Source of the DNA: an uncultured Gammaproteobacteria bacterium | GTDB lineage: Bacteria; Patescibacteriota; Microgenomatia; CAZETR01; Amesbacteraceae | Reading direction: 5' to 3' | NCBI GenBank assembly: GCA_964633995.1 | Contig: CAZWKN010000005.1 | Span: 920-64,919, forward strand | DNA length: 64,000 bases | In this document: one piece after another, positions 12,005-43,174 of the stretch | How the letters are laid out: every line of letters begins with the position of its first letter | Position numbering within the stretch: the stretch's first letter is position 1 | Made by a program: the position numbers and the translations under genes | Notes under the pieces: model-generated | What the model was told of the DNA's origin: nothing | The model's input: the letters and a program-made list of their open reading frames with translations, nothing else | The model's database searches: none

Positions 12005-14125
12005 ATGCCCGCAAAACGCTCTCTCCTTGGTCGAAAAAAACATCAATTGCGTCTCAAAAAAACCACAGTTAATTCTATTGGGGCCATAATGCTCTTTGGG
12101 TTGGCGGGTTTAGTCTGGGTTTCGTTCATCCGTCAAGGACTTCTTCTAGTCAAGGTAAACAATCTATTAATGCTCCATTTTGGGTTAGTCCCACTTCTTT
12201 TTCTACCCTTTCCGTTTATTGTCGGTGGGTTGATGATTACCAAATTCAAGTCTTCTTTGGCAGAGCCAAACGTGTTTGCGGGCAGCCTCGTTGTCCTGGC
12301 CGTTTTAACGGGCTTGTTTCACCAGGGAGATTTAGGTGCAGAGTTTTGGCGCAGCACCTCCGCACTTTTGTCTCCAGTGGGCTCGTTTTTATTCTTACTT
12401 GTTGGTCTTGCAGTTGGTTTGATAATCATGTTTAACGTCCCCTTTGAGGATGTTATTGGGTTTATTGTAAAACTTTTCACTTTTGAAAAGAAAAGTCCTA
12501 CTGCTATTTCACCCAAGCCCATCAAAATGTCTGGCATGGCAGTATCCAATCCATCTATCCCCACCCCTATCCGTCAATCAGAAATCAAAACTACAGGCAT
12601 TGGTACAAAACCAACTAAAAATTCTCCTACCCAACTATCTATTCCATCTGCACCATCTGCCGCCTCCGATTCTGTCTGGCATTATCCCTCCATGGCCCTT
12701 TTATCGGAAAACATCTCAGGGAAAGCGGATCGTGGGAACGTAAACAATAATGCAGACATAATCGAGAAGACTTTAGATGCGTTTGGTATCACTGCCAAGG
12801 TAGTCGAAGTAAATCTTGGTCCGGCGGTTACTCAATATGCTCTCGAGGTGGCAATTGGTACCAAGCTCTCAAAGATAAACGCATTAAGTAATGACTTAGC
12901 CCTCGCCCTAGCGGCACCTACTGGCCAAATTCGGATCGAAGCACCTATACCAGGTAGATCGCTCGTGGGCATAGAACTCCCGAATCGTACTCCGGAGTTT
13001 GTCAGCTTAAGAAAAATTTTAGATTCTGACGCCTTTAAACACCATAAAAGCAAGCTCTCTGTTGCTCTCGGTTTGGATGTGTCCGGAAGTGCAATCGTTG
13101 CCGATATTGCCAAGATGCCCCACATTCTCATTGCAGGATCTACTGGTTCAGGTAAATCGGTTTGTATTAATGCTTTTATTGCCTCGCTACTTTTCCGTTG
13201 TAGCCCCCAGGAGTTAAATCTCATCATGGTCGATCCCAAGCGGGTCGAGTTAACAGGCTATAACGGCATTCCGCATTTGTTAAGTCCGGTCATAGTTGAA
13301 CCAGACAAGGTTCTATCTGCTCTCAAGTGGGCAACCGGGGAGATGGATCGCAGATATAAATTATTCGCCGAGGTCGGAGTCAGAAATTTGGAAGCCTATA
13401 ACGACCTTTCCGGCTTTCAGGCTCTACCCTACATAGTTATTCTGATCGATGAATTGGCAGATATCATGCTCTTTGCCCCCGTTGAAGTGGAAGATGCCAT
13501 AACTCGTATAGCTCAAATGGCCAGAGCCACGGGTATTCATTTGGTAATTGCCACTCAACGTCCGTCAGTCGATGTAATAACCGGCCTTATTAAAGCAAAC
13601 ATCCCCGCCCGCATGGCTTTTGCAGTCTCATCAATGATTGATTCGCGTGTCATCATCGACCAACCTGGCGCTGAGAAACTCCTTGGTCGGGGCGATATGT
13701 TGTACGTTCCGCCCGATCAGGCAAAACCAAGTCGTATTCAAGGTGCATTTGTCTCCGACAAAGAAATACACCAACTTATCGACTTTATAAAAAAACAGGG
13801 CATTGCTCCACATTACACCGAAGAAGTTCTCACTCAACAAATTTCGACCGGCAAGCGCGGGGCCAATCGTGGATCATCGTTTATTGCCCCCAATGGAGAT
13901 AGTAGGGATGAGCTGTTTGAACCAGCACTTCGAGTTATTGTCCAAAACAACAACGCCTCAGCATCGTTTTTACAAAGAAAACTTAGTGTTGGTTATGCAA
14001 GGGCAGCAAAAATCCTTGACGAGCTACAAGCCGCCGGGGCTATTGGACCTGCCAACGGTGCAAAACCCAGAGATATTCTCATCAACGATGTTACTGGTTT
14101 CTTAACTCCCCCGGCATCGGGATAG
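12005..14125 (+). CDS. ftsK: DNA translocase FtsK/SpoIIIE
   Basis: N-terminal TM helices, then linker and motor domain with Walker A GSTGSGKSVCIN and Walker B IVILIDELAD. C-terminal winged-helix gamma domain. Confidence 0.9.
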   Translation: MPAKRSLLGRKKHQLRLKKTTVNSIGAIMLFGLAGLVWVSFIRQGLLLVKVNNLLMLHFGLVPLLFLPFPFIVGGLMITKFKSSLAEPNVFAGSLVVLAVLTGLFHQGDLGAEFWRSTSALLSPVGSFLFLLVGLAVGLIIMFNVPFEDVIGFIVKLFTFEKKSPTAISPKPIKMSGMAVSNPSIPTPIRQSEIKTTGIGTKPTKNSPTQLSIPSAPSAASDSVWHYPSMALLSENISGKADRGNVNNNADIIEKTLDAFGITAKVVEVNLGPAVTQYALEVAIGTKLSKINALSNDLALALAAPTGQIRIEAPIPGRSLVGIELPNRTPEFVSLRKILDSDAFKHHKSKLSVALGLDVSGSAIVADIAKMPHILIAGSTGSGKSVCINAFIASLLFRCSPQELNLIMVDPKRVELTGYNGIPHLLSPVIVEPDKVLSALKWATGEMDRRYKLFAEVGVRNLEAYNDLSGFQALPYIVILIDELADIMLFAPVEVEDAITRIAQMARATGIHLVIATQRPSVDVITGLIKANIPARMAFAVSSMIDSRVIIDQPGAEKLLGRGDMLYVPPDQAKPSRIQGAFVSDKEIHQLIDFIKKQGIAPHYTEEVLTQQISTGKRGANRGSSFIAPNGDSRDELFEPALRVIVQNNNASASFLQRKLSVGYARAAKILDELQAAGAIGPANGAKPRDILINDVTGFLTPPASG

Positions 14126-14146
14126 GCTGTGGTAACATGACATCAA

Positions 14147-14788
14147 ATGAAGACCACAGGACAAATTCTTCAGGCCGCCAGGGTAAGATCGTTGCAGGAT
14201 CTTTCGGAGATTTCCAAAATAACCAAAATTCGTGAACAGTTTTTACAAGCCCTGGAGTCGGATGATTATTCGGTACTACCCAGTGGTACTGTCGCCAGGG
14301 GATTTATTAAAAATTACAGTACTTTTTTGGGCCTGAATCCAGATTATGTATTAGCGATTTTCCGCCGTGATTTTGTAGAAAATGCCAGTGGGCAAATAGT
14401 GCCAAGGGGTATGGTTGAATCCGTTTCCAAGGTAAGCTTTTGGACTCCAAAATCTACCATCTTCCTTTTTGTTATTTGTATTTTCACCCTATTTTTGGGT
14501 TATCTTTTTTTTCAGTATCGCACATTAACTGGCCCACCAGCGTTAAAAATTATTTCTCCCAGTAATGGTTATACAACCAGCGAAGACACTGTAGAAGTAA
14601 TAGGAATTACAGATCCTGAGGCGACTATTTCAGTTGCCAATCAATTGGTTGCACTGGATAAAGGCGGTCGTTTTTCGTTTCGCGTTCCCTTGAAACCCGG
14701 TCACAACACCATTGCCGTGGTTGCAATTGGCAAGTCAAAAAAAACAGCAACAATTGAACGGGATGTCAACTTGACAACAAGTCCATAA
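14147..14788 (+). CDS. rodZ: RodZ-like cytoskeleton protein (HTH-XRE N-domain, single TM, C-terminal beta domain)
   Basis: TGQILQAARVRSLQDLSEIS...LESDDYSVLP...GFIKNYSTFLGL is a RodZ-like HTH. It is followed by a TM helix and an extracytoplasmic domain. Confidence 0.65.
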   Translation: MKTTGQILQAARVRSLQDLSEISKITKIREQFLQALESDDYSVLPSGTVARGFIKNYSTFLGLNPDYVLAIFRRDFVENASGQIVPRGMVESVSKVSFWTPKSTIFLFVICIFTLFLGYLFFQYRTLTGPPALKIISPSNGYTTSEDTVEVIGITDPEATISVANQLVALDKGGRFSFRVPLKPGHNTIAVVAIGKSKKTATIERDVNLTTSP

Positions 14789-14814
14789 AACCTATAACCT
14801 ATACCAATCAAGCA

Positions 14815-15162
14815 ATGACGACTTTCGTTCAATTATTGATGGGGATAGTTATTACCACTATGACATTTTTGGTTGCAGTGGTTGGCATTCAGGTATTTCA
14901 CATACTCCATGAATTTCGGATACTGCTTCAAAAAACCAATCGAATTTTGGATAATACTCAAACATTGTCGGAAGCCAGTGCTAAGCCAATCGCAGCCGTA
15001 AATGAGTTTTTTTCCGAGGTCAAGGATTTGGTCAACACAACCCAGGATGAAATCATAAATCAAACTCCTGACAGGGTTATTCAACCCGTAACTCGCACTC
15101 CGCAACATATTTCCAAATCCCATTTCTTCAGACGATCTGGCCTTCCTCTTCGACCTTCATAA
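14815..15162 (+). CDS. Hypothetical membrane-anchored protein (N-terminal TM plus predicted helical region)
   Basis: 115 aa with a hydrophobic N-terminus. Confidence 0.4.
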   Translation: MTTFVQLLMGIVITTMTFLVAVVGIQVFHILHEFRILLQKTNRILDNTQTLSEASAKPIAAVNEFFSEVKDLVNTTQDEIINQTPDRVIQPVTRTPQHISKSHFFRRSGLPLRPS

Positions 15163-15189: not shown

Positions 15190-16941
15190 ATGCTTTCAGG
15201 TAACGCTATTCGTGCAAAATATTTAGCTTTTTTTAAAAGCAAGGGCCATGCTGTAATTCCTTCGGCTCCACTGGTCCCGGAAAACGACCCCACAACCCTC
15301 TTTACAGGCTCCGGCATGCAACCCATGCTACCGTTTTTATTAGGTCAGCCATACCCACATGGCTTAACTCGTCTTGTGGATTCTCAAAAATGTTTCCGCG
15401 CCCAGGACATAGAAGAAGTTGGAGATAATAGACACGACACTTTTTTTGAAATGCTCGGCAATTGGTCCTTGGGGGATTACTTCAAGCAAGAGCAGTTAGC
15501 GTGGTTTTATGAGTTCTTAACCACCGAACTTTCCCTCCCCAGCGACAAGTTATATGTTTCATGTTTTATCGGCAACTCAGAGATACCAAAAGACGAAGAA
15601 GCAGCAAATATATGGAAAAAGTTAGGCATAAAAGAAGATCATATTTTCTATTACGACACGAAAAAAAATTGGTGGGCCAGATCAAACTATGAATCAATGC
15701 CAAATGGTGAACCCGGCGGTCCCGATTCAGAGGTCTTTTTTGACTTCGGCACCCAACATGATTCTAGTTTTGGTGACATCTGTCACCCCAATTGTGATTG
15801 TGGACGTTTTATGGAAATAGGCAACAGCGTGTTTATGACTTACCAAAAAACCTCATTAGGATTTATTCCGTTAGAAAAGAAAAATATTGATTTTGGTGGT
15901 GGACTTGAGCGTCTTACAGCAGCAGTAAACAATAACCCAGATATTTTTAAAACAGATCTCTTTTTAGGGATTATTCAATATCTAGAGACTTGTTCCCTTA
16001 AAAAATATTCAGACAACGCCCCCGCTATGCGGATAGTGGCCGACCACCTCAGAGCGTCTGCCTTTTTAATTTCAGACGGGATTTTTCCATCCAACAAAGC
16101 TCAGGGTTACTTTTTAAGACGTTTGCTTCGACGTGTTTTGGTAAAGCTTCAACAGCTTGGTATTTCTAACCCCGATTTTACAGCTTTGGTCTCAACTATT
16201 TTTGAAATTTACGCCGACTCTCCTTACTTCAAATCATCCTCAGTCTCAGATGTTTCCAAAGTTATCTCCGAAGAGGCTTCCAAGTTTTCAAAAACTCTTA
16301 CTGATGGGCTTAAAAGAATTGCCAACACTAGCCCCTTTGATCTTTTTCAGACCTTTGGATTCCCTCCTGAGGTAACAGAAGAATTGTTAAAGCAACAGGG
16401 CAAAACCTTGGATTGGGATGAATTTAACAAACACAAAGCGCTACATCAGGAGCTATCTCGCACGGCAGGCAAGGGTATGTTTAAAGGAGGCCTTCAAGAT
16501 CAATCTGAAATTACTACCAAATATCACACCGCCACTCACCTTATACACGCGGCTCTCAGACAAATTTTGGGGACTCGTGTCCAGCAAAAAGGAAGCAATA
16601 TAACATCAGAAAGACTCCGGTTCGATTTTTCCCACGATTCAAAAATGACTGAATCACAAATTCGCGAAGTTGAAACTCTGGTCAATCAAAAAATCGCGGA
16701 AGATATTCCTGTCACAAAAATTGAAATGAACAAATCTCAGGCTATTGCAGAAGGCGCAATGGCTTTTTTTCCAGAAAAATATCCTGATATCACCAACGTA
16801 TATTCTATTGGTAAATTCTCAAAGGAACTTTGTGGTGGACCCCATGTTCATTCGACAGGGGAAGTGGGACGTATTAAGATAATAAAGGAAGAATCCGCTG
16901 GAGCCGGAGTTCGTCGTATTTATGCATCTGCCCTTCTTTAA
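15190..16941 (+). CDS. alaS: Alanyl-tRNA synthetase, truncated form (catalytic plus editing core, no C-terminal linker or C-Ala domain)
   Basis: N-terminal AlaRS class II catalytic motifs (FTGSGMQPMLPF, FEMLGNWSLGDYFK). Editing-domain zinc motifs HTATHLIH and CGGPHV lie near the C-terminus. Only 583 aa. Confidence 0.85.
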   Translation: MLSGNAIRAKYLAFFKSKGHAVIPSAPLVPENDPTTLFTGSGMQPMLPFLLGQPYPHGLTRLVDSQKCFRAQDIEEVGDNRHDTFFEMLGNWSLGDYFKQEQLAWFYEFLTTELSLPSDKLYVSCFIGNSEIPKDEEAANIWKKLGIKEDHIFYYDTKKNWWARSNYESMPNGEPGGPDSEVFFDFGTQHDSSFGDICHPNCDCGRFMEIGNSVFMTYQKTSLGFIPLEKKNIDFGGGLERLTAAVNNNPDIFKTDLFLGIIQYLETCSLKKYSDNAPAMRIVADHLRASAFLISDGIFPSNKAQGYFLRRLLRRVLVKLQQLGISNPDFTALVSTIFEIYADSPYFKSSSVSDVSKVISEEASKFSKTLTDGLKRIANTSPFDLFQTFGFPPEVTEELLKQQGKTLDWDEFNKHKALHQELSRTAGKGMFKGGLQDQSEITTKYHTATHLIHAALRQILGTRVQQKGSNITSERLRFDFSHDSKMTESQIREVETLVNQKIAEDIPVTKIEMNKSQAIAEGAMAFFPEKYPDITNVYSIGKFSKELCGGPHVHSTGEVGRIKIIKEESAGAGVRRIYASALL

Positions 16942-19057
16942 AAAACCAATAACGGCCCCCTCCCGGGAGTATTTTTTTGCGTTGGAAATTGACCATCATG
17001 CCGTAAAAAGTGCAGTCTGGACTGTCGCCAACAGTAAAACCCAAATGGTATCCACTGGAAATGTTGTTGCCTGGGACGACAGATCCATAGACAGTCTCAT
17101 CGAAGCCTGTGACCAAACCTTATCAGACTCGGCCAACCGTCTTGATCCGTCGGGTAAGACCCAGCCGGAAAAAGTCATTCTAGGTCTTCCTTCTGATTGG
17201 ATGGGCGAGGACAAAATAATATCCGACCGACTCAAATACCTTAAGGCCATGACCCAAAAACTATCACTTAACGCAGTAGGTTTTGTAGTCAACCCAGAAG
17301 CTGCAGTCCGCTATATACAATCTATAGACGGAGCGCCTCCAACCGCAATCATAATTGGAGTCTGGGACCATCACTTAGAAATAACATTGGTCCGGCTAGG
17401 AAAAATCGATTCAACAGAATTGATTAGTAGAAGCTCTAAAGTAGTCGACGATGTCGTAGAGGGTCTTTCGAGATTTCCCCAAATCAATATGTTGCCATCC
17501 AGAATATTGTTGTATGATTCCGGCCATAGTCTAGAAGAGATAAAGCAACAATTGCTTGCCCACCCCTGGCAAGCTCCTCAAACCAAGCTTCCGTTTTTAC
17601 ACTTTCCCAAGATAGAATCACTGCCTTCAGATTTTTCAATCCGTGCCATCTCGGTCTCGGGAGGAGTGGAGGTAGCTCGTAGTTTAGGTATAATTGCCGA
17701 TGAACCGACTTCCGTGCCAACCCCAGAACCAAATACTGAACCCACCCCGGAGGAATTGGGTTTTTCCACAGTCGATGTTCCATCGCATCCAGAACCTCCG
17801 GCTCTAGAGCAGGACGATTCTATCAATGAAGAGCCGCCCCGTGTCCCTAAGAACCATTTTAAATTCCAATTCCCCAAATTGCCGTCATTTCCAACACTTC
17901 CAATGATCCGTTTACCATACGCCCCTCTGCTGTTTATTATTGCTTTGGTCATTGCTTCAATAGGGCTACTATTAGCTTATTGGTTGCTACCCAGGGCCTC
18001 GGTGACTCTTATCGTAAATTCCCAGGAACTTTCAGCCGATTTTAATCTGACCGCAGACACCCAAATATCCTCCCCCGATTTATCCAAGCCAAGTTTGCCC
18101 GCTCAGATTGTCGAAGTCTCTGTTTCTGCCGAAAAGTCGACTACTGTTACTGGTTCAAAATTAGTCGGTGACAAAGCCACTGGAACGGTCACAGTGATAA
18201 ATGGCACCTCACAACCCAGAACCTTTTTGGCAGGTAGCGTGCTCTCTTCCCCGTCTGGTCTAAAATTCACTACCGATTCGGACATCTCTGTTGCCTCTGC
18301 ATCGGGAACCGCCGATCCAAACTCCTATCAACCTGGCAAGGCCTCCGTAAAGGTTACTGCGTCGTCGATTGGTACAGATAGCAACCTATCTGCAGGAACC
18401 CAGTTTCGGGTTGGTACCTTTGCGTCATTAGATTATGTCGCTAAAAACGATTCAGCGCTATCAGGAGGAAGTAGCAGGCAGGTTAAGGCTGTGTCCAAAT
18501 CCGATTTAGAAAAACTTCGTTCCGACCTGACAGCTTCATTAAAAGATCAGGCAAAATCAGAATTACAATCAAAAGTTGGTTCCGGTCAAACCCTGGTATC
18601 GGATTCGGTCACATTGCAAACTACCACCGAAAACTTTGATCACAAAGAATCTGAAGAAGCAGACGAAGTTAAATTAAAACTCGTTATTTCAGCCAGAGGC
18701 CTAGTTTTAACCAACGCCGACCTAGCTCCAATTGTCTCAGAACAAATTCGTCCAAAAATACCCGACGGTTTTAGTCTGACCGGGGACCCGAAATTCTCGT
18801 TTACTATTAAGAAAGTAGAAAAAAACACCGCTAACTTAATTGTGCATTCCACAGCTTTTGTTTTGCCCAAGTACGATATTCAAAAAATTATAACTGATAT
18901 CTCAGGAAAAATTCCCAATATTGCAGAAGCATACCTTATCAAACTACCCGCCGTTTCATCTACTCACTTCGAATTTCATCCTAAACTTCCAGATTTTCTA
19001 CTTACCCTTCCCCATCAAGCCAAAAACATTAAGCTCACAATTACACCTGCCCCGTAA
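16922..19057 (+). CDS. Large membrane protein: N-terminal actin-fold (PilM/FtsA-like) domain, one TM helix, and a roughly 370-aa Ser/Thr-rich extracytoplasmic domain
   Basis: N-terminal FFALEIDHHAVKSAVWTV...VILGLPSDW...AVGFVVNPEAAVRYI resembles the PilM/FtsA ATPase fold. TM helix LLFIIALVIASIGLLLAYWLL. No LPXTG motif. Confidence 0.45.
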   Translation: MHLPFFKKPITAPSREYFFALEIDHHAVKSAVWTVANSKTQMVSTGNVVAWDDRSIDSLIEACDQTLSDSANRLDPSGKTQPEKVILGLPSDWMGEDKIISDRLKYLKAMTQKLSLNAVGFVVNPEAAVRYIQSIDGAPPTAIIIGVWDHHLEITLVRLGKIDSTELISRSSKVVDDVVEGLSRFPQINMLPSRILLYDSGHSLEEIKQQLLAHPWQAPQTKLPFLHFPKIESLPSDFSIRAISVSGGVEVARSLGIIADEPTSVPTPEPNTEPTPEELGFSTVDVPSHPEPPALEQDDSINEEPPRVPKNHFKFQFPKLPSFPTLPMIRLPYAPLLFIIALVIASIGLLLAYWLLPRASVTLIVNSQELSADFNLTADTQISSPDLSKPSLPAQIVEVSVSAEKSTTVTGSKLVGDKATGTVTVINGTSQPRTFLAGSVLSSPSGLKFTTDSDISVASASGTADPNSYQPGKASVKVTASSIGTDSNLSAGTQFRVGTFASLDYVAKNDSALSGGSSRQVKAVSKSDLEKLRSDLTASLKDQAKSELQSKVGSGQTLVSDSVTLQTTTENFDHKESEEADEVKLKLVISARGLVLTNADLAPIVSEQIRPKIPDGFSLTGDPKFSFTIKKVEKNTANLIVHSTAFVLPKYDIQKIITDISGKIPNIAEAYLIKLPAVSSTHFEFHPKLPDFLLTLPHQAKNIKLTITPAP

Positions 19058-19732
19058 ATGCTTCGATTCAAATCCAAAAAAATTGCCTTTGTTTTAGTTG
19101 GCCTAGGTTTAACAGCCTGGCTTACAATTTTAGTCCCAATACTCATTCATTATTTGTTCTTTGTTACAATCAATCCATTAACAATTCTTGATCCATCTGC
19201 TTCAGTGTACCCCAATCCTATTGTGTTAAACGTCTTGGGTCTGGCCACCTCGGATTTTACTCAAGCATCTACGTGGTTTGAAAATACTTTACCCCCCCAG
19301 GCTTCAAATTCAGCAGGAACTGTCAAATACTATTCTATTTCAATCCCCAAACTAAAGATGTCTGATGTCTCAGTTGAAGTTTATGGCTCAGATCTTAAAA
19401 AAAACGCCATTCAGTACCCTGGCACCGCCCTTCCTGGTAGTCCAGGTAATCCTGTCGTCTTTGGCCACTCAGCCCTGCCCCAATTTTATCAGGCCCGAAA
19501 TCCGTTAACGATTTTTAACCCATTGACAAAAATTGCTATAGGCGATGAGATACTAGTCAACTATGACGGCATCATCTTTAGATATCGTGTTCGTCAGAAA
19601 CAAGAAGTAACCCCCACCGACATTTATGTCTTAGCCCAGCGCTACGACAAAAGAGAATTGACCTTAATTACATGTGTCCCGCTGGGAACCTATTTTCATC
19701 GGCTGGTTGTTCGTGCCGAACTGATAAACTAA
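19058..19732 (+). CDS. Sortase (transpeptidase)
   Basis: N-terminal TM anchor, conserved His in GNPVVFGHS, catalytic TLITC motif and downstream Arg (RLVVRAEL). Confidence 0.8.
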   Translation: MLRFKSKKIAFVLVGLGLTAWLTILVPILIHYLFFVTINPLTILDPSASVYPNPIVLNVLGLATSDFTQASTWFENTLPPQASNSAGTVKYYSISIPKLKMSDVSVEVYGSDLKKNAIQYPGTALPGSPGNPVVFGHSALPQFYQARNPLTIFNPLTKIAIGDEILVNYDGIIFRYRVRQKQEVTPTDIYVLAQRYDKRELTLITCVPLGTYFHRLVVRAELIN

Positions 19733-19737
19733 CTCAC

Positions 19738-20115
19738 ATGAATTATTTAGGTTTAGACTATGGACAAAAAAATATTGGGGTGGCGTTGGCAATCGGCCCA
19801 TTAGCCGAACCATTAATCACTTTTTCCACCGCTAAGTCTATCTCTTTAATCAAGGCTTTGGTAGAAAAACATCATATTGACGAAATTATTATTGGTCAAC
19901 CGGACAAGCTTTTAGAGTCCGAGTTTAAAGGATTTGTTGACCAGTTGTCCATTCTAAATCGTCCACTGTCCATCGTAGACGAAACACTTTCTTCTCACGA
20001 TGCCCGTCAAGCATTGTTGCACACTTCCAGAACCAGGCGTAAAAACTCTGAGCACGCAGTCGCGGCAACCATAATTCTCCAATCATTCCTTGACTATCAG
20101 CTATCAAAAAGTTAA
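19738..20115 (+). CDS. ruvX: Holliday-junction resolvase-like RuvX/YqgF
   Basis: MNYLGLDYGQKNIGVALA... is an RNase H-like YqgF start. Start trimmed to the ATG at 19738; the longer 19672 ORF overlaps the sortase. Confidence 0.8.
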   Translation: MNYLGLDYGQKNIGVALAIGPLAEPLITFSTAKSISLIKALVEKHHIDEIIIGQPDKLLESEFKGFVDQLSILNRPLSIVDETLSSHDARQALLHTSRTRRKNSEHAVAATIILQSFLDYQLSKS

Positions 20116-20123
20116 AGTAAGGC

Positions 20124-20324
20124 ATGTTTAAAAATGTCATTGCCCCAGTTCAAGCTTGGTTGCTTTCGCAAGGTCGCTGTGTAGGCTGTGGAACCGACTT
20201 GAGTACGGCTAAGTCCCAAAAACATGAGGATGGGGAAAAGGTCACTTGTTCAAAATGTGGTCGTATATTTATCAAGGAATCTCCGTCAGGCAAATATCGT
20301 CGGGCATTGTTTGCTGAAGTGTGA
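20124..20324 (+). CDS. Small zinc-ribbon protein
   Basis: 66 aa with CVGCG...CSKCG (two CxxC pairs). Confidence 0.45.
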   Translation: MFKNVIAPVQAWLLSQGRCVGCGTDLSTAKSQKHEDGEKVTCSKCGRIFIKESPSGKYRRALFAEV

Positions 20325-21283
20325 AAAAACTCGCCGCTTTATTAGTCTCCTTACTTTTAGTCGTTGTTGTAGTATCAATTCCAACACTGTGGTATTACAT
20401 TCAAATTTATACTAATCCACTACCCCAAAAACGCTATGCAGAATTTATTATCACCAATGGCTCTCCCGCCTCAACCATAGTAGACAATTTGGTCCAACAA
20501 CAATTTGCTCGTTCCTCTTTGGCGATCAAAATATATCTCCGTCTAAATGGACTTACAAACTCTCTTCGTCCCGGGGGTTATCAAATTTCAAAAGCCTTAA
20601 CCCCAGCGCAAGTTATAAATCAACTCACCAAAGGGCCAGAAGATATCTGGATTACGTTCCCAGAAGGCTGGCGTCGCGAACAAATCGCTCTGAGGTTGTC
20701 TTCACAACTGGCGGATTTTGACATTCAGAGTTTTTTAAGCCTTACGGCTGACCTAGAAGGGCAACTTTTCCCCGACACCTATCTCATTCCGCCCTATGTC
20801 AAAGCTAAAGATGTTGTCGAATTAATGACCAGAAATTTCGTTAATAAATCCAAGCTCAAGCTTCCATTGGATAAAAACATTCTAATCATGGCATCCCTAA
20901 TTGAACGTGAGGTTCGTACGCAGGAGGATAGGGGGTTGGTGGCGGGTATTATGCAAAAACGACTTGAAGCTAATTGGCCGCTTCAGATTGATGCAACCGT
21001 TCAATACGCTCGTGACTCCTATAATTTTAAACTTCATCCCTCAAATTTCAAATTTTGGGAGCCTGTCTTTGATACCAAATTCCCCTCTAGTTACAATACC
21101 TACCTCAACTCTGGTTTGCCACCAGCCCCAATTAGCAACCCCGGTTTGTTTTCGATTCAGGCTGCACAAAACCCCACCCCCTCACCCTATTGGTATTATT
21201 TAACAGACACTTCTGGAACGACCCATTATTCCAAAACACTCTCGGAGCACAACTTCAATGTTGACAAATACCTAAGACCCTGA
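20321..21283 (+). CDS. mltG: Endolytic murein transglycosylase MltG (YceG family)
   Basis: N-terminal TM, YceG-like domain with conserved ...LIEREV... catalytic Glu region. alaS-ruvX-mltG synteny. Confidence 0.8.
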   Translation: MKKLAALLVSLLLVVVVVSIPTLWYYIQIYTNPLPQKRYAEFIITNGSPASTIVDNLVQQQFARSSLAIKIYLRLNGLTNSLRPGGYQISKALTPAQVINQLTKGPEDIWITFPEGWRREQIALRLSSQLADFDIQSFLSLTADLEGQLFPDTYLIPPYVKAKDVVELMTRNFVNKSKLKLPLDKNILIMASLIEREVRTQEDRGLVAGIMQKRLEANWPLQIDATVQYARDSYNFKLHPSNFKFWEPVFDTKFPSSYNTYLNSGLPPAPISNPGLFSIQAAQNPTPSPYWYYLTDTSGTTHYSKTLSEHNFNVDKYLRP

Positions 21284-21331: not shown

Positions 21332-24300
21332 TTGCGCACGCTAGCGCATTTTTGTTTTCCAAAACCTTTACAAATGTCGCAGTCAAATCGCCTTTATTGG
21401 GGTAAGAGTTTTTCAAACCTCCCCAAACTAAACCTCAACCAAATCCAGATTGATAGTTGGAAGTGGTTCTTGGAAAATGGCATAAAAGAAAATCTCACCG
21501 AAATTGGCTCCATAGATGATTTTACAGGCAAGAATTGGACTCTTTCTTTTGGAGAACACTCAATTGAGAAGCCCACCATAACTCCATCACAGGCCCTTAG
21601 AAAGGGCCTTACTTTTTCTTCCTCATTGCGTATCCAGACCAAGCTTTTAAACAAACAAACAGGTAAAGAAGCTATTGGGGAGGTGTTTTTGGGCGATCTC
21701 CCTCAAATGACAGATCGTGGCACATTTATCATCAATGGAGTAGAAAGAACGGTCATTACCCAAATCGTTAGGTCCCCTGGTGCATATTTTGGCTCGGAAA
21801 TTGACGCCGCCTCTGGCCGATTAGTTCATACCGCAGAACTTCGTCCAATCCGGGGCACCTGGCTAGAATTTGAAATTTCTCGAGGCGACGTACTTTCAGT
21901 CCGCATTGATAGACGTCGCAAGTTTGTAGTTACTACTCTTCTACGGGCGCTTGGTCTTTCTACTAACCAACAAATCATAGAAGCGTTTTCAGATGTCAAC
22001 TTCGACCCCAATCACCCCTATTTAGATAGCTCTTTGGCCAAAGATACTACCAAAACCACAGAAGAAGCTTTGGTTGAAATTTACAAAAAAATGCGCCCTG
22101 GAGAACCAATCGTTTTAGAAAATGCCCAACGTTTGATTTTTGATCTATTCTTTAATCCTCGTAGATACGATCTGGGCAAGGTGGGTCGTTTCAAGCTCAA
22201 CAAAAGATTAAACCTCTTCTCCGAGTCTCTTATTCTTACTCGTGACGACTTAATCTCGACCATAAAATATTTAATTGGTCTTCAAAACGGCGTAGGCAAA
22301 ATCGATGACATTGATCATTTAGCCAATCGCAGGGTAAGGGGGGTCGGGGAACTCGTGAGTCAAACAGCCTTCCGGGATGGGCTTCTTAGGCTAGAACGGG
22401 CAATTAAAGAGAAGATGAGCTTGGTTTCAACGGAAGAATTAGTATCTCCGACCATGTTGGTAAACGCCAGACCTGTTATTGCCTCCGTAAATGAATTTTT
22501 CAGGAGTTCTCAATTATCTCAAATTCTCGAACAAACCAATCCATTGTCCGAAATTGACCACCTTCGTCGTCTGACGGTGATGGGTCGAGGCGGTATTACC
22601 CGTGAAAGAGCCTCGTTTAGCATCAGAGACGTCAATTCCAGCCAATATGGTCGTATTGATCCAGTCCGTTCACCAGAAGGTGCCAACATTGGACTCGTAA
22701 CCTATTTGGCGTTATACGCCAGAGTTAACGAATTTGGTTTCTTGGAAGTTCCCTACAGAAAACTGAAAAAAGAAGACCTCAATGGCAAGACTCTGGTAAA
22801 AGCCACCGATGAAATTGTTTATCTCAATGCAGACGATGAAGAAAATTTCCGTATTTCCCACAGCGATCTTCACATGGACGAAAATGGTTATGTCAAAGAG
22901 GAGTGGCTTCCAATTCGTTATCAAGGCACTTTTATAGAAGGCACCGCAGCCTCGGTTGATTTCATCGACTCTGTTCCCAGGCAACTTGTTGGCACTTCAG
23001 CCTCGCTTATTCCGTTCTTGGCCAACGACGCTGCAAATCGCGCTCTCATGGGATCAAACATGCAGACTCAAGCTGTTCCATTATTGCGTCCCAACAGTCC
23101 CGTAGTCGGAACTGGTATGGAAAAAGAAGTTGCTGGATTCATGGGTTGGTGTGTATATGCCAGGCATTCGGGTACAGTTTCTTATGTAGATTCTACAAAA
23201 ATTATAATTAAGCTCGACAAAAAACCCGAGTCGGTAGAGGCGGCAGAACATGTCTCAGTCAAGGGGGACCTGGAAACCTACTCTCTCATTAAGTTTAAAC
23301 GGACTTCTCAGAGCTCGTCTTTCAACCAAGAGCCTGTTGTTTCATTGGGCCAAAAAATCGCCAAAGGCCAGTTGCTTATTGATGGTCCATCAACCCAAAA
23401 TGGCGAGCTAGCTTTGGGCCAGAATCTTGTTATCGCCTATGCATCATACGATGGGCTTGGTTACGAAGACGCCATCGTCATTTCTGAGCGCTTGGTTAGG
23501 GAAGATCTTTTAACTTCAATTCACATTGAGGAGTACGAAGCGGATGTTGTAGATACCAAACTTGGCCCTGAGGAACTAACGAGAGATATTCCAAATGTAG
23601 GGGAATCTTTCTTGGCCAATCTTGACTCAGAGGGTATCGTCTCGGTCGGTTCAGAGGTTTCCCCAAATGATATTTTGGTTGGAAAAATTGCCCCCAAGGG
23701 CGAAACTGAACTCTCGGCTGAAGAGCGTCTTTTAAGGGCGATCTTTGGCGAAAAAGCACGCGACGTACGCGACACGTCTCTTCGTATGCCTCATGGGGAA
23801 CGTGGAATGGTTATTGATATTCATGTTTTAGACCGTGAAGCAGGAGATGAACTTCCTCCAGGAGTCAACAAAAGAGTAGTTGTAAAGGTGGCCCAGATAA
23901 GAAAAATAAACGTTGGAGATAAGTTGGCTGGCCGTCACGGAAACAAAGGTGTAATTTCCAAAATTGTTCCCACCGCAGATATGCCTCATCTCGAGGACGG
24001 AACTCCGATCGACATCATGATTTCTCCACTTTCTGTGCTTGCTCGTATGAATTTGGGTCAACTACTCGAAGCAAGACTTGGTTGGGCCATGTCCAAACAG
24101 AACAAGAAAGTAGCAGTTCCTGTTTTTGAAAAAGTTGCAGAAGAACAAATCGCCGATGAGATGCAAAAGGCAGGTCTTCCGGTCTCTGGTAAAACCTATC
24201 TAATTGATGGTAGGACCGGATTGCCATACGAAGAACCAACAGTGGTGGGTATAGGGTACATCCTTAAGCTTCACCACATGGTCGAGGATAAAACTCACGC

Positions 24301-24742
24301 CAGGTCTACTGGGCCATATTCTCTGGTCACTCAACAACCACTCGGTGGAAAAGCCCAAATGGGAGGACAGAGGCTAGGGGAGATGGAGGTCTGGGCGCTC
24401 GAATCTCACCGTGCTGCTTTTACCCTTCAGGAAATGCTTACCATCAAATCTGACGACGTTGTTGGCAGAGCCAAGGCGTTCGAGGCCATCGTTAAAGGCA
24501 CAGACATCCCCACCAGTTCCGTCCCGGAGTCGTTCAATGTTTTGGTTAAAGAACTGCAAAGCCTTGGGCTTCAAGTTATCCCCCAAGGGGTCCAGGTTAA
24601 AGCGTCGGATGATTCTGGAGCCACAACTCCCACTCCCGCAGCGGACGATAATACTGTACAATCAGTTGCTTCAGATGATTTAGTAGACTTAACAGAAGTT
24701 TCAGACGACGAAGCCGTCGAAAAATTACCTGACGATAAATAA
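21332..24742 (+). CDS. rpoB: DNA-directed RNA polymerase subunit beta
   Basis: Full-length RpoB homology (NRRVRGVGEL, GRHGNKGVISKI and others). The start is uncertain: a TTG at 21332 or the ATG at 21374. Confidence 0.93.
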   Translation: MRTLAHFCFPKPLQMSQSNRLYWGKSFSNLPKLNLNQIQIDSWKWFLENGIKENLTEIGSIDDFTGKNWTLSFGEHSIEKPTITPSQALRKGLTFSSSLRIQTKLLNKQTGKEAIGEVFLGDLPQMTDRGTFIINGVERTVITQIVRSPGAYFGSEIDAASGRLVHTAELRPIRGTWLEFEISRGDVLSVRIDRRRKFVVTTLLRALGLSTNQQIIEAFSDVNFDPNHPYLDSSLAKDTTKTTEEALVEIYKKMRPGEPIVLENAQRLIFDLFFNPRRYDLGKVGRFKLNKRLNLFSESLILTRDDLISTIKYLIGLQNGVGKIDDIDHLANRRVRGVGELVSQTAFRDGLLRLERAIKEKMSLVSTEELVSPTMLVNARPVIASVNEFFRSSQLSQILEQTNPLSEIDHLRRLTVMGRGGITRERASFSIRDVNSSQYGRIDPVRSPEGANIGLVTYLALYARVNEFGFLEVPYRKLKKEDLNGKTLVKATDEIVYLNADDEENFRISHSDLHMDENGYVKEEWLPIRYQGTFIEGTAASVDFIDSVPRQLVGTSASLIPFLANDAANRALMGSNMQTQAVPLLRPNSPVVGTGMEKEVAGFMGWCVYARHSGTVSYVDSTKIIIKLDKKPESVEAAEHVSVKGDLETYSLIKFKRTSQSSSFNQEPVVSLGQKIAKGQLLIDGPSTQNGELALGQNLVIAYASYDGLGYEDAIVISERLVREDLLTSIHIEEYEADVVDTKLGPEELTRDIPNVGESFLANLDSEGIVSVGSEVSPNDILVGKIAPKGETELSAEERLLRAIFGEKARDVRDTSLRMPHGERGMVIDIHVLDREAGDELPPGVNKRVVVKVAQIRKINVGDKLAGRHGNKGVISKIVPTADMPHLEDGTPIDIMISPLSVLARMNLGQLLEARLGWAMSKQNKKVAVPVFEKVAEEQIADEMQKAGLPVSGKTYLIDGRTGLPYEEPTVVGIGYILKLHHMVEDKTHARSTGPYSLVTQQPLGGKAQMGGQRLGEMEVWALESHRAAFTLQEMLTIKSDDVVGRAKAFEAIVKGTDIPTSSVPESFNVLVKELQSLGLQVIPQGVQVKASDDSGATTPTPAADDNTVQSVASDDLVDLTEVSDDEAVEKLPDDK

Positions 24743-37413: not shown

Positions 37414-37439
37414 AAAACGGGGCCAAGGCCCCGTTTTTG
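37414..37439 (+). terminator. Rho-independent terminator after hup
   Basis: Hairpin ACGGGGCC-AA-GGCCCCGT followed by TTTTT. Confidence 0.7.
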
Positions 37440-37454
37440 GTAAAATCTTTCCAT

Positions 37455-38240
37455 ATGCGCAAATATTGGAGATTTTTTACCGTCGAGTTTCAACAGTCCG
37501 TCAACTACCGACCTGAAGCCTTCGTTTGGTTTCTATTAGAATTGGCCCCCATGTTGATAATGGTCAATCTTTCTGGATATCTTCAATCAACAGGTCGGTT
37601 AAACCACCAGCAATACAGTCAGTTTATTTTATATTTTGTCGTCAATCTTTATGTTTCCAGGCTTACCGCAGTGCATTTTGAGGACAATCTTATAGATGAC
37701 ATCAAAGACGGTAAGATAAGTTCAGGGCTCCTCAAGCCCTTTTCCTTTTATTGGCATTTACTATTTAGGGAATTTTCATGGAGACTGTCCGGGCTCATGT
37801 ATCTTATTCCAACGTTTTTATTATTAATTCCGCTTATCAATACATTAATACTTCCTCATACTACTCCAGGGATAATCTTGGCGCTTATTCCAGCTCTTGT
37901 AATCGCATATTTACAACGTTATTTTCTTGGCTGGATAATCAGCCTTCCCGCCTTTTGGTTTGACCAGTCGAAGGTCTTGGTCCATTTGCGTTGGATGGCC
38001 GAGGGAATTCTTGGTGGCGCCTGGTTACCCCTCTATCTTTTCCCCGCCTGGTGGCAGTCTTTTGCCCGACTAACACCGTTTTATTATTGGTTTTATTTTC
38101 CTACCCAGTTATTTCTCGGCAATATTACAAACATAGCCGGTCAATTTCTAATAGCCATTTTATGGGTTTTTATTCTTTATTTTATTTCTTCCTGGTTTTG
38201 GAATTTCGCTGTCAAAAGTTATTCTTCGGTTGGGGGTTAA
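37455..38240 (+). CDS. ABC-2-type transporter permease, paralog 1 of 6
   Basis: About 6 TM helices and a shared motif (I/V)SxGxLxxLLKPxSFY. Start chosen at MRKYWRFF to match the MKKY/MRKY starts of the paralogs. Confidence 0.7.
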   Translation: MRKYWRFFTVEFQQSVNYRPEAFVWFLLELAPMLIMVNLSGYLQSTGRLNHQQYSQFILYFVVNLYVSRLTAVHFEDNLIDDIKDGKISSGLLKPFSFYWHLLFREFSWRLSGLMYLIPTFLLLIPLINTLILPHTTPGIILALIPALVIAYLQRYFLGWIISLPAFWFDQSKVLVHLRWMAEGILGGAWLPLYLFPAWWQSFARLTPFYYWFYFPTQLFLGNITNIAGQFLIAILWVFILYFISSWFWNFAVKSYSSVGG

Positions 38241-38243
38241 TAT

Positions 38244-39799: not shown

Positions 39800-39800
39800 T

Positions 39801-40589: not shown

Positions 40590-40608
40590 TTTGGGATAAA
40601 ATCACCAC

Positions 40609-42389: not shown

Positions 42390-42390
42390 T

Positions 42391-43170: not shown

Positions 43171-43174
43171 TATC

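What the first reader, a model, noticed from the sequence alone, without database searches (positions are those of the whole stretch)
16922..19732. A PilM/FtsA-like membrane fusion protein plus a sortase are inserted into the conserved alaS-ruvX-mltG locus
In many bacteria alaS is followed directly by ruvX (yqgF) and mltG (yceG), for example the B. subtilis alaS-yrzL-yrrK-yrzB-yrrL locus. Here a 711-aa protein and a class-E-like sortase (TLITC) sit between alaS and ruvX. The 711-aa protein has an N-terminal actin-fold domain resembling PilM/FtsA, one TM helix and a roughly 370-aa Ser/Thr-rich extracellular domain, in the order PilM-PilN(/O). Its start overlaps the alaS stop by 20 nt. No LPXTG substrate is encoded nearby. 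The pair could belong to a CPR-type surface pilus or attachment apparatus, or to a cell-division module.
Basis: partly seen in the sequence, partly recalled or inferred. Interest (0 to 1): 0.55.

Follow-up and report, generated by a model that had tools for sequence, protein, structure and literature searches.

The report
Actin-fold/baseplate-like membrane protein paired with sortase
A previously undescribed membrane protein sits next to a sortase in the same housekeeping gene cluster across the Microgenomates group of ultrasmall (CPR) bacteria; it has a degenerate actin-like domain inside the cell and a phage-baseplate-like domain outside, which suggests a lineage-specific cell-envelope module rather than a pilus (PilM/PilN) or FtsA protein.

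Summary
alaS is at 15190-16941, the 711-aa gene at 16922-19057 (20-nt overlap), the sortase at 19058-19732 (stop TAA abutting ATG), followed by ruvX, a Zn-ribbon gene, mltG and rpoB.

The AlphaFold2 model (pLDDT 88) shows a minimal actin-like (ASKHA) core at aa 17-255. It has no FtsA/PilM 1C subdomain and its phosphate loops are degenerate. No sequence model of PilM, FtsA or any other actin-fold family matches it.

A disordered linker with an invariant GF motif and one TM helix follow. The 356-aa ectodomain is Baseplate-J/gp47-like, on Pfam, PHROG and Foldseek evidence (Mu gp47, phi812, XM1, diffocin). It is not PilN/PilO-like.

The arrangement is not a local insertion. In 80 genomes spanning the Ames-, Shapiro-, Woese-, Chisholm-, Davies- and Gottesmanbacteria the order ftsK-rodZ-alaS-X-sortase-ruvX-mltG-rpoB recurs. 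The X-to-sortase junction is mostly -4, -1 or 0 nt, which indicates translational coupling. No pil genes, ftsZ or sorting-signal substrate lie nearby.

My best reading is a bitopic pseudo-ATPase scaffold that works with a catalytically intact, unclassified sortase in envelope or surface-protein assembly. The anatomy is well supported; the function is inferred.

The parts
16922..19057 (+). CDS of the 711-aa bitopic membrane protein ('X711')
   Evidence: ORF. More than 357 homologues exist, at up to 57% identity. The AF2 model has pLDDT 88.
16970..17686 (+). Cytoplasmic minimal ASKHA (actin-like) domain, aa 17-255, with degenerate nucleotide-binding motifs
   Evidence: The secondary structure is two beta-beta-beta-alpha-beta-alpha-beta-alpha lobes without inserts. 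Foldseek hits EutJ, PilM, PPX/GppA, FtsA, Mbl and DnaK. No ASKHA Pfam hit occurs in 62 members. Found in 1251 clusters, and in all 150 best hits listed it lies at the N-terminus.
17687..17920 (+). Disordered Pro/Glu-rich cytoplasmic linker, aa 256-333
   Evidence: pLDDT is 41-57. Mean pairwise identity is 22%.
17753..17764 (+). Conserved short linear motif ELGF ([DEN][LF]GF) within the linker
   Evidence: G280 and F281 are invariant in 62 sequences and at least 90% conserved in 80 class-wide sequences.
17921..17986 (+). Single transmembrane helix, aa 334-355 (N-in, C-out)
   Evidence: Helix 334-355 in the model. Lys/Arg cluster on the N-terminal side.
17987..19054 (+). Extracellular Baseplate-J/gp47-like domain, aa 356-711, made of a beta-barrel part (356-525) and an alpha/beta part (526-711)
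   Evidence: - Pfam Baseplate_J: window protein 19.4 bits (cut-off 21.1); 53 of 62 homologues hit, best E=1e-9.
- PHROG_6 baseplate wedge: E=4.5e-7.
- Domain-only model has pLDDT 92.7.
- Foldseek full-length collinear hits to phi812, A-1(L), XM1, Pa193, Mu gp47 and diffocin baseplate proteins, and to 43 BFVD proteins, most of them baseplate-J or wedge proteins by name.
19058..19732 (+). Sortase, 224 aa, with an N-terminal TM anchor (aa ~9-33) and an extracellular catalytic domain (aa 94-222)
   Evidence: Pfam Sortase E=4e-24. It falls below the cut-off of every NCBIfam sortase class. The nearest solved structures are class C/D sortases at E~1e-9. Its start codon abuts the X711 stop.
19466..19702 (+). 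Sortase catalytic residues H137 (19466-19468), C206 in LTLITC (19673-19675) and R215 (19700-19702)
   Evidence: All three are at least 90% conserved in 75 orthologues.
15190..16941 (+). Context: alaS (short 583-aa form), upstream neighbour overlapping X711 by 20 nt
   Evidence: NF002436 at 653 bits. Conserved neighbour in the related loci.
19738..21283 (+). Context: ruvX (19738-20115), 66-aa Zn-ribbon gene (20124-20324) and mltG/yceG (20321-21283)
   Evidence: Pfam RuvX and YceG, NCBIfam MltG. Conserved downstream order.
12005..15162 (+). Context: ftsK (12005-14125), rodZ-like HTH-TM gene (14147-14788) and a 115-aa membrane protein (14815-15162)
   Evidence: Pfam results. Conserved upstream order in most of the related loci.

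Best explanation
The 711-aa protein (X711) and the sortase form a two-gene cell-envelope module that is conserved across the class and translationally coupled.

X711 is a bitopic scaffold with four parts:
- a cytoplasmic, minimal and probably non-catalytic actin-fold (ASKHA) domain;
- a disordered tether carrying an invariant GF peptide motif;
- one TM helix;
- an extracellular domain homologous to the J/gp47/gp6 wedge protein of contractile-tail baseplates. That fold oligomerises in its phage context.

The sortase is anchored by an N-terminal TM helix, has its active site outside the cell, and retains an intact His-Cys-Arg triad.

Proposed mechanism (inferred): X711 and the sortase are made in fixed proportion and act together at the outer face of the membrane. 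The baseplate-like ectodomain would provide a platform that positions the sortase, or its products, relative to the wall. The pseudo-actin domain and GF motif would link this platform to a cytoplasmic partner.

The outcome would be anchoring or assembly of surface proteins during envelope growth. The embedding of the pair among ftsK, rodZ-like and mltG genes fits that role.

Shown here: gene structure, folds, topology logic, conservation, coupling and synteny. Inferred: physical interaction, oligomerisation, lack of ATPase activity, and the identity of the substrates.
For: Anatomy:
- AF2 models have pLDDT 88 (full length) and 92.7 (ectodomain).
- ASKHA fold hits.
- Baseplate-J evidence from four independent routes: Pfam on 53 of 62 members, PHROG_6, PDB Foldseek and BFVD Foldseek.

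Degenerate ATP site:
- The phosphate-1 position reads ALEIxxxxVK and phosphate-2 reads LLGFWP in place of DxGxxT-type loops.
- No canonical ASKHA phosphate motif was found in any locus.

Pairing:
- The sortase lies immediately downstream in about 75 of 80 genomes from at least six candidate phyla.
- The junction distances cluster at -4, -1 and 0 nt. The alaS-X711 and sortase-ruvX junctions vary far more, up to hundreds or thousands of nt.
- The sortase catalytic triad is conserved in 75 orthologues.

Family size and constancy of architecture:
- The N-domain is found in 1251 clusters at 50% identity. In the 150 best hits listed it is always N-terminal, mostly in proteins of about 670-820 aa.

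Context: a conserved ftsK, rodZ-like, alaS, X711, srt, ruvX, mltG, rpoB block.

Literature:
- A sortase family is reported as near-ubiquitous in the Microgenomates (PMC6744442).
- A complete Microgenomates genome has a separate PilM in its type IV pilus locus (PMC7143001).
Against: - No direct evidence shows that the two proteins interact. A complex prediction could not be run.
- No sortase substrate was found in the window or in the flanks of 80 loci, so the enzyme's role is unknown.
- Four loci keep X711 next to ruvX without an adjacent sortase, so the pairing is not obligatory at the level of gene order.
- Tight packing and overlaps are common in these small genomes, and the surrounding cluster also contains unrelated housekeeping genes (alaS, rpoB). 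Synteny alone is therefore weak functional evidence.
- Foldseek global TM-scores for the ectodomain are low (~0.2). The homology rests on local 3Di/sequence scores and domain collinearity.
- Loss of ATP binding is inferred from sequence only.
Confidence: 0.45

Rival explanations
1. X711 is a GspL- or PilM-PilN-type alignment protein of a type IV pilus-like machine. The cytoplasmic actin-like domain would dock an assembly ATPase, and the ectodomain would form the trans-envelope alignment complex.
For: - The bitopic topology, with a cytoplasmic actin-fold domain lacking nucleotide motifs, is the GspL/PilM-N layout.
- PilM structures are among the best fold hits (E 1e-7, TM 0.44-0.48).
- A conserved peptide motif sits between the fold and the TM helix, recalling the way the PilN N-terminus binds PilM.
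Against: - No PilM_2, PilN or PilO model matches any of 62 members.
- The ectodomain's top PDB and BFVD matches are baseplate-J proteins, with no PilN/PilO among the top 50.
- There is no 1C/SHS2 subdomain.
- No pil or gsp gene lies in the window or in the +/-6 kb flanks of 80 loci.
- A Microgenomates genome has its own PilM in the pilus locus (PMC7143001).
Confidence: 0.1
2. X711 is a lineage-specific divisome or elongasome component, acting as an FtsA- or RodZ-like membrane anchor for cytoskeletal filaments. Its function would be independent of the sortase, which is merely a neighbour.
For: - The actin-like fold includes FtsA and Mbl hits.
- It is conserved next to ftsK, a rodZ-like gene and mltG.
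- Four loci keep X711 without the adjacent sortase.
Against: - The X711-sortase junction is the tightest and most conserved in the cluster.
- No FtsZ signature occurs within the window or the 80 loci.
- X711 lacks the FtsA 1C subdomain, an amphipathic C-terminal helix and ATP motifs.
- A minimal two-lobe core lacks the IB/IIB subdomains that actin-like protofilament contacts use (established knowledge; not tested here).
Confidence: 0.15
3. X711 is the sortase's dedicated partner in the chemical sense. Its ectodomain would supply the acceptor nucleophile (for example the near-invariant Lys448) or be processed at the LP[KR]A junction after the TM helix. The sortase would then ligate proteins onto X711, or release the ectodomain.
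For: - Dedicated sortase-target gene pairs are known in other lineages (for example the marine class GN sortase systems; established knowledge).
- The closest solved relatives are pilin-polymerising class C sortases.
- The coupling is tight.
- An LP[KR]A motif lies at the outer face of the membrane.
Against: - X711 has no C-terminal sorting signal (motif followed by a TM helix and a basic tail).
- The residue after LP[KR]A varies (T, K, E, V, D, S, Q), unlike true sorting motifs.
- That segment is the first beta-strand of the folded domain.
- No pilin-like YPKN motif was identified.
Confidence: 0.1
4. The baseplate-like gene is a remnant of a prophage or contractile injection system that happens to lie here.
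For: Baseplate_J, PHROG and Foldseek matches to phage wedge proteins.
Against: - The position is identical, within a housekeeping operon, in 80 genomes of at least six candidate phyla.
- No sheath, tube, gp25/TssE-like or gpI/TssG-like genes are adjacent.
- It is fused to a TM helix and a cytoplasmic domain.
- Base composition does not differ from the flanks.
Confidence: 0.02

Closest known systems
GspL / EpsL (type II secretion) and PilM-PilN (type IV pilus alignment proteins, fused in some Gram-positives)
   Same: Both are bitopic or paired layouts. A cytoplasmic actin-like (ASKHA) domain serves as a scaffold rather than an enzyme (GspL), followed by a short conserved peptide or tether, one TM helix and an extracytoplasmic domain. 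PilM is among the best structural matches.
   Different: X711 has no SHS2/1C subdomain and no sequence-model match. Its ectodomain is 356 aa and baseplate-J-like, not a ~100-aa ferredoxin-like PilN/PilO/GspL domain. It never lies in a pil or gsp locus, and it is paired with a sortase.
Baseplate J / gp47 / T4 gp6 / TssF wedge proteins of contractile tails and related injection systems (PF04865)
   Same: The ectodomain matches at sequence-profile level (Pfam in 53 of 62 members; PHROG_6). It also matches as a full-length collinear structural alignment to Mu gp47 and to phi812, XM1, A-1(L), Pa193 and diffocin baseplate proteins.
   Different: X711 is membrane-anchored and extracellular, and is fused to a cytoplasmic domain. 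It is encoded in a housekeeping operon without any other tail or baseplate gene. Global TM-scores are only ~0.2, so subdomain arrangement differs or is flexible.
FtsA
   Same: Both have an actin-superfamily fold at the membrane. FtsA structures are hit at E 1e-6.
   Different: X711 has no 1C subdomain and a TM helix plus ectodomain in place of the amphipathic helix. Its ATP motifs are degenerate, it is not next to ftsZ, and no FtsA model matches it.
Class C/D/E sortases of Gram-positive bacteria
   Same: The partner gene has the sortase fold, the TLxTC motif and the His-Cys-Arg triad, with an N-terminal membrane anchor.
   Different: It scores 25-61 bits against NCBIfam class models whose cut-offs are 140-166 bits, so it belongs to none of the defined classes. 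It has no adjacent LPXTG substrate or pilin genes. Its conserved neighbour is X711.
EutJ and PPX/GppA (small ASKHA proteins)
   Same: These give the best fold scores for the N-domain (EutJ TM 0.53; PPX/GppA E 4e-8). They are of similar minimal size, without large inserts.
   Different: They are soluble proteins with intact nucleotide- or phosphate-binding loops. There is no sequence-level relationship.

Membership tests
ASKHA (actin/Hsp70/sugar-kinase) fold superfamily | Two RNase-H-like beta-beta-beta-alpha-beta-alpha-beta-alpha lobes | tested here: met
   The AF2 secondary-structure order for aa 17-255 fits this pattern. Foldseek probability is 1.00 to EutJ, PilM, PPX/GppA, FtsA, Mbl and DnaK, with TM up to 0.54 normalised on the target.
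ASKHA (actin/Hsp70/sugar-kinase) fold superfamily | Phosphate-1/phosphate-2 loops (DxG..., DxGGG[ST]T) for nucleotide and Mg binding | tested here: not met
   The family consensus reads ALEIxxxxVK and AILLGFWPxxLEV at the equivalent strands. A regular-expression scan found no canonical motif. This is a sequence-level test only; no binding assay was done.
FtsA | Match to FtsA sequence models | tested here: not met
   There is no Pfam or NCBIfam FtsA hit for the window protein or for 62 homologues. A family profile finds no solved FtsA at E<=10.
FtsA | Subdomain 1C (SHS2 insert) and a C-terminal amphipathic membrane-targeting helix | tested here: not met
   The core is only ~240 aa with no insert. 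It is followed by a linker, a true TM helix and a 356-aa ectodomain.
FtsA | Genomic association with ftsZ (dcw cluster) | tested here: not met
   No GGGTG[ST]G tubulin signature occurs in the 64-kb window or in 80 loci of ~14 kb. The neighbours are alaS and the sortase.
PilM (type IV pilus) | Match to PilM_2 or equivalent sequence models | tested here: not met
   No hit in any of 62 members at E<=0.05.
PilM (type IV pilus) | Structural similarity to PilM | tested here: inconclusive
   5eou/5eox match at E 1e-7 with TM 0.44-0.48. This is no better than EutJ or PPX/GppA, so the match is at superfamily level only.
PilM (type IV pilus) | Encoded with pilN/pilO/pilB/pilC | tested here: not met
   The window genes scanned contain no pil genes. 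The conserved flanks in 80 loci are ftsK, rodZ, alaS | srt, ruvX, mltG, rpoB.
PilN / PilO | Short periplasmic coiled coil plus a ferredoxin-like (alpha-beta-beta)x2 domain | tested here: not met
   The ectodomain-only model gives baseplate-J and GlxA-barrel hits. No PilN/PilO appears among the top 50 of the PDB search, and no Pfam PilN/PilO hit was found. Weaker matches below rank 50 were not visible.
Baseplate J / gp47 (PF04865) | Match to the family's sequence model at the curated threshold | tested here: inconclusive
   The window protein scores 19.4 bits against a cut-off of 21.1. However, 53 of 62 homologues match at E<=0.05 (best 1.2e-9), and PHROG_6 'baseplate wedge subunit' scores 4.5e-7.
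Baseplate J / gp47 (PF04865) | Same fold and domain order as solved wedge proteins | tested here: met
   Collinear alignments of 340-380 columns to 9euf_I, 8kea_d, 7kh1_A5, 9b45_j, 9ki1_H (Mu) and 8v3w (diffocin), at E 2e-6 to 6e-5 and probability 1.00. Another 43 BFVD hits have E<1e-3. Caveat: global TM is ~0.2.
Baseplate J / gp47 (PF04865) | Part of a contractile-tail or injection-system gene set (gp25/TssE-like, gpI/TssG-like, hub, sheath, tube) | tested here: not met
   None of these lies in the window region or the conserved flanks. X711 is therefore a domain-level homologue, not a baseplate component.
Sortase (PF04203) | Sortase domain with catalytic His, TLxTC Cys and Arg | tested here: met
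   85.2 bits against a cut-off of 26.6. H137, C206 and R215 are conserved in at least 90% of 75 orthologues.
Sortase classes A-F (NCBIfam) | Score above the class-specific cut-off | tested here: not met
   Class C scores 60.6, E 44.2, D 42.3 and F 24.7 bits, against cut-offs of 160-166 bits. 'Class-E-like' is not supported.
Sortase system | A substrate with a C-terminal sorting signal encoded nearby | tested here: not met
   Motif and hydropathy scans of the window and 80 loci found none. Whole genomes could not be searched.
GspL | Bitopic protein with a cytoplasmic actin-like domain and a small periplasmic ferredoxin-like domain, encoded in a gsp operon | tested here: not met
   The topology is analogous. 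However, the ectodomain differs, the context differs, and GspL is absent from the top 50 fold hits.

The most novel reading that the evidence does not exclude
The Microgenomates may have exapted a phage baseplate-wedge fold as the extracellular, ring- or platform-forming part of a trans-membrane machine. In this reading the pseudo-actin domain and the GF motif control the machine from the cytoplasm. Its dedicated, unclassified sortase builds or anchors a surface appendage or attachment structure used in the episymbiotic lifestyle. That would be a new kind of sortase-dependent envelope apparatus, specific to CPR bacteria.
Probability: 0.12. Interest if true: 0.8.

Novelty: new variant of a known kind. 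Interest (0 to 1): 0.55.

Why it matters
CPR/Patescibacteria make up a large share of bacterial diversity, and their envelope and attachment biology is almost unknown. A sortase family was already noted as near-ubiquitous in the Microgenomates (PMC6744442), but no partner or substrate has been described.

This analysis gives that sortase a conserved, translationally coupled partner with an unprecedented architecture: pseudo-actin domain, TM helix, then baseplate-J-like ectodomain. The partner family has at least 1,251 clusters at 50% identity.

It also shows a contractile-tail wedge fold used as a cellular housekeeping ectodomain. This yields concrete, testable targets for understanding how these ultrasmall bacteria organise their cell surface: the X711-sortase complex, the GF motif and ectodomain oligomers.

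The analysis also corrects a plausible but wrong annotation route (PilM/PilN, FtsA, or 'baseplate protein' implying a prophage).

Tried and rejected
- **Sorting signals.** LPXTG-like regular-expression and C-terminal TM/basic-tail scans of all ORFs in the window and in 80 related loci found no credible sortase substrate. The only recurring candidate is a 608-aa beta-helix surface protein after ruvX in L019 and L025. It has a C-terminal TM anchor but no LPXTG-type motif, and occurs in only two closely related genomes.
- **Promoters and terminators.** The scan of 11.5-25 kb gave counts no higher than shuffled sequence and no intergenic signal. It is uninformative about operon boundaries.
- **Solved structures.** A family-profile search of all solved-structure sequences returned only a weak diffocin baseplate hit (E=0.34) and no actin-fold protein.
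- **Taxonomy of distant hits.** The cluster-member look-up for ten divergent representatives returned no names or taxonomy.
- **Possible split genes.** One short N-domain-only hit (P0136) is cut by a contig end. The other (P0126/L081) is a 401-aa product close to a contig end, with an extra 226-aa gene upstream. Neither is convincing evidence for a natural split.
- **LP[KR]A as a sortase motif.** I considered the LP[KR]A sequence at the TM exit, and rejected it as unlikely because the next position is variable and the segment is a structural strand.
- **Literature.** Searches (baseplate J + Patescibacteria; sortase + Microgenomates; LPXTG + Patescibacteria; sortase + CPR + pili) found nothing on this protein family. 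The 2026 preprint on a novel CPR pilus concerns Saccharibacteria filaments and does not involve this module.
- **Prophage reading.** Rejected on synteny and uniform base composition.


Full report
**1. What is in the sequence.**
Between 12 and 25 kb every gene is on the + strand and closely packed. The order is as follows:

| Gene | Coordinates | Notes |
|---|---|---|
| ftsK | 12005-14125 | |
| rodZ-like gene | 14147-14788 | HTH_25, TM, Glucodextran_B-like domain |
| 115-aa membrane protein | 14815-15162 | |
| alaS | 15190-16941 | short 583-aa form |
| 711-aa ORF ('X711') | 16922-19057 | |
| sortase | 19058-19732 | 224 aa |
| ruvX | 19738-20115 | true start |
| 66-aa Zn-ribbon ORF | 20124-20324 | |
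| mltG/yceG | 20321-21283 | |
| rpoB | 21332-24742 | |

X711 overlaps alaS by 20 nt, and its TAA stop is followed directly by the sortase ATG. The rest of the window is housekeeping: nusA, infB, pnp, RNase J, rpoA, recA/recX, RNase Y, ABC transporters, miaA, secDF, ddl, cca and recJ. It contains no pil genes, no ftsZ or ftsA, and no protein with a C-terminal sorting signal.

**2. Anatomy of X711.**
Sequence models say little. Pfam gives only a sub-threshold Baseplate_J match at aa 416-516 (19.4 bits against 21.1), and NCBIfam gives nothing. With a 62-sequence alignment, AlphaFold2 gives a confident model (mean pLDDT 88).

*N-terminal domain.*
- Residues 17-255 form two consecutive beta-beta-beta-alpha-beta-alpha-beta-alpha lobes, which is the minimal ASKHA/actin core with no inserted subdomains.
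- Foldseek against the PDB returns PPX/GppA (E 4e-8), EutJ (TM 0.53 on the target), PilM (TM 0.44-0.48), FtsA, Mbl and DnaK, all at similar significance.
- The domain is therefore actin-superfamily, but it is no closer to PilM or FtsA than to other small members.
- None of 62 family members hits any ASKHA Pfam model. A family profile finds no solved ASKHA protein at E<=10.
- The strands that normally carry the phosphate-binding loops read ALEIxxxxVK and LLGFWPxxLEV in the family consensus. The glycine-rich loops and the phosphate-2 aspartate are missing. I infer a non-catalytic scaffold domain, as in GspL; this was not tested biochemically.

*Linker and TM helix.*
- Residues 256-333 are disordered, Pro/Glu-rich and poorly conserved (22% pairwise identity). 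The exception is an invariant Gly-Phe in a [DEN][LF]GF motif (ELGF, aa 278-281). It is conserved across all 80 class-wide sequences and has the look of a docking peptide.
- A single TM helix (334-355) follows a Lys/Arg-rich segment. The topology is therefore N-in, C-out.

*Ectodomain.*
- The ectodomain (356-711; 23% Ser+Thr) was modelled alone at pLDDT 92.7.
- In the PDB it matches baseplate wedge proteins over essentially its whole length (340-380 aligned columns). These are phi812 9euf_I (1.8e-6), cyanophage A-1(L), XM1, Pa193, Mu gp47 (9ki1_H) and diffocin. The GlxA beta-barrel also matches the barrel subdomain.
- In BFVD, 43 hits at E<1e-3 are, where a name is available, almost all 'Baseplate J-like'.
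- Independent sequence evidence agrees. Of the 62 homologues, 53 match Pfam Baseplate_J (best 1.2e-9). PHROG_6 'baseplate wedge subunit' scores 4.5e-7.
- Global TM-scores are low (~0.2), as expected for an elongated multi-subdomain protein compared with assembled conformations. The claim is therefore homology at domain level, not identical quaternary behaviour.
- No PilN or PilO structure appears among the listed matches.

**3. The sortase.**
It has an N-terminal TM anchor and a complete catalytic domain. H137, C206 (LTLITC) and R215 are at least 90% conserved in 75 orthologues. Its nearest solved relatives are class C and D enzymes at E~1e-9. It scores only 25-61 bits against NCBIfam class models whose cut-offs are 140-166 bits. 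It is a distinct, unclassified sortase and is not specifically class E.

**4. Distribution and synteny.**
- X711 has more than 357 word-index homologues, all from CPR/Microgenomates sources where a name is given.
- The N-domain alone finds 1,251 clusters at 50% identity (363 at E<=1e-30). In the 150 best hits listed it is always at the N-terminus, mostly in proteins of about 670-820 aa.
- A scan of species-representative genomes returned 129 relatives. The 80 retained loci come from the Ames-, Shapiro-, Woese-, Chisholm-, Davies- and Gottesmanbacteria and from unclassified Microgenomates.
- tblastn with the window's proteins shows the same order, ftsK, rodZ, (small TM), alaS, X711, sortase, ruvX, (Zn-ribbon), mltG, rpoB, in nearly all of them.
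- The X711-stop to sortase-start distance is -4, -1 or 0 to +3 nt in most of 75 loci. The alaS-X711 and sortase-ruvX junctions range much more widely, the latter up to 2.3 kb.
- Four Daviesbacteria-type loci lack the adjacent sortase but keep X711 next to ruvX.
- No FtsZ signature occurs in any locus.
- The pair is therefore an ancestral, class-wide feature, not an insertion peculiar to this genome. It looks 'inserted' only by comparison with the alaS-ruvX-mltG arrangement of Firmicutes (my own knowledge of the B. subtilis locus; not tested here).

**5. Interpretation.**
The best-supported reading is a two-protein envelope module. One part is a bitopic scaffold with a pseudo-ATPase actin-fold domain and a GF tether motif inside the cell, and outside a baseplate-wedge-like domain whose fold oligomerises in its phage context. 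The other part is an active sortase made in fixed proportion through translational coupling.

The conserved neighbourhood of wall and division genes (ftsK, rodZ-like, mltG) fits a role in surface-protein anchoring or envelope assembly. So does the published observation that a sortase family is near-ubiquitous in the Microgenomates (PMC6744442).

The architecture works like GspL or PilM-PilN in layout, but it fails the membership tests for PilM, PilN/O, FtsA and GspL. It also fails the contextual test for a true baseplate protein. A complete Microgenomates genome has its own PilM in the pilus locus (PMC7143001), which argues against X711 being the pilus PilM.

Physical interaction, oligomeric state, substrates and the cytoplasmic partner all remain inferred.

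**6. Rivals.**
- A pilus or secretion alignment protein, about 0.10.
- A sortase-independent divisome or elongasome anchor, about 0.15.
- X711 as the sortase's chemical acceptor or processed target, about 0.10.
- A prophage remnant, about 0.02.
- The evidence for and against each is given in the Rival explanations section.

**7. Novelty.**
No paper in the searchable library describes this family. Public annotations are 'hypothetical protein' or 'baseplate J/gp47 family protein'. Each fold is known, but the combination and its conserved coupling to a sortase are new. I rate it a new variant of a known kind (bitopic actin-fold scaffolds; dedicated sortase modules), of moderate interest (0.55). 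Interest would rise considerably if the ectodomain proves to form an extracellular platform for a CPR-specific surface structure.

Noticed in passing
window 17753-17764 (X711 aa 278-281): An invariant Gly-Phe within a [DEN][LF]GF motif is the only conserved element of an otherwise variable, disordered cytoplasmic linker. It is conserved across all 80 class-wide homologues and is a candidate docking peptide.
   Followed up: partly
window 17981-18001 (X711 aa 354-360): A conserved W-x-L-P-[KR]-A-x sequence lies at the outer end of the TM helix. It superficially resembles a sortase motif, but the following residue is variable and the segment is the first beta-strand of the ectodomain.
   Followed up: partly
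L019:4552-6378 and L025:9081-10907: In two Amesbacteria-like genomes a 608-aa secreted beta-helix/Ig-like protein lies directly downstream of ruvX. It has a C-terminal TM anchor ending in WRK and no LPXTG motif. Its relation to the sortase is unknown.
   Followed up: partly
window 37437-43816: A run of ~260-aa ORFs, two of them confirmed as ABC-2 family permeases, plus an ABC ATPase. GC is lower here (0.39-0.41) and AT skew strongly negative (to -0.28), unlike the rest of the window.
   Followed up: no
window 1-64000: Nearly all genes are on the + strand while GC skew is persistently negative (cumulative -1.83 over the window). A published Microgenomates genome paper reports unusual strand compositional disparity.
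   Followed up: no
window 15190-16941: alaS is the short 583-aa form (NF002436, 653 bits). It is far shorter than the 847-position TIGR00344 alaS model, which it matches only over its N-terminal half.
   Followed up: no
window 20124-20324: A 66-aa CxxC...CxxC zinc-ribbon ORF between ruvX and mltG is conserved in Ames-, Woese-, Shapiro- and Chisholmbacteria loci. tblastn does not detect it in Daviesbacteria-type loci.
   Followed up: partly
L065, L071, L073, L074: Four loci, at least one of them from Daviesbacteria, have X711 directly followed by ruvX with no adjacent sortase. In three of them alaS is on the opposite strand.
   Followed up: partly
L081:1063-3073: One metagenomic contig has an extra 226-aa gene of unknown family between alaS and a 401-aa X711 N-terminal product that stops 63 nt before the contig end. 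This may be a frameshift or a variant architecture.
   Followed up: partly
window 14147-14788: The rodZ-like gene combines the RodZ-type HTH_25 domain and a TM segment with a Glucodextran_B-like beta-sandwich ectodomain. It matches the RodZ NCBIfam model only over the HTH.
   Followed up: no
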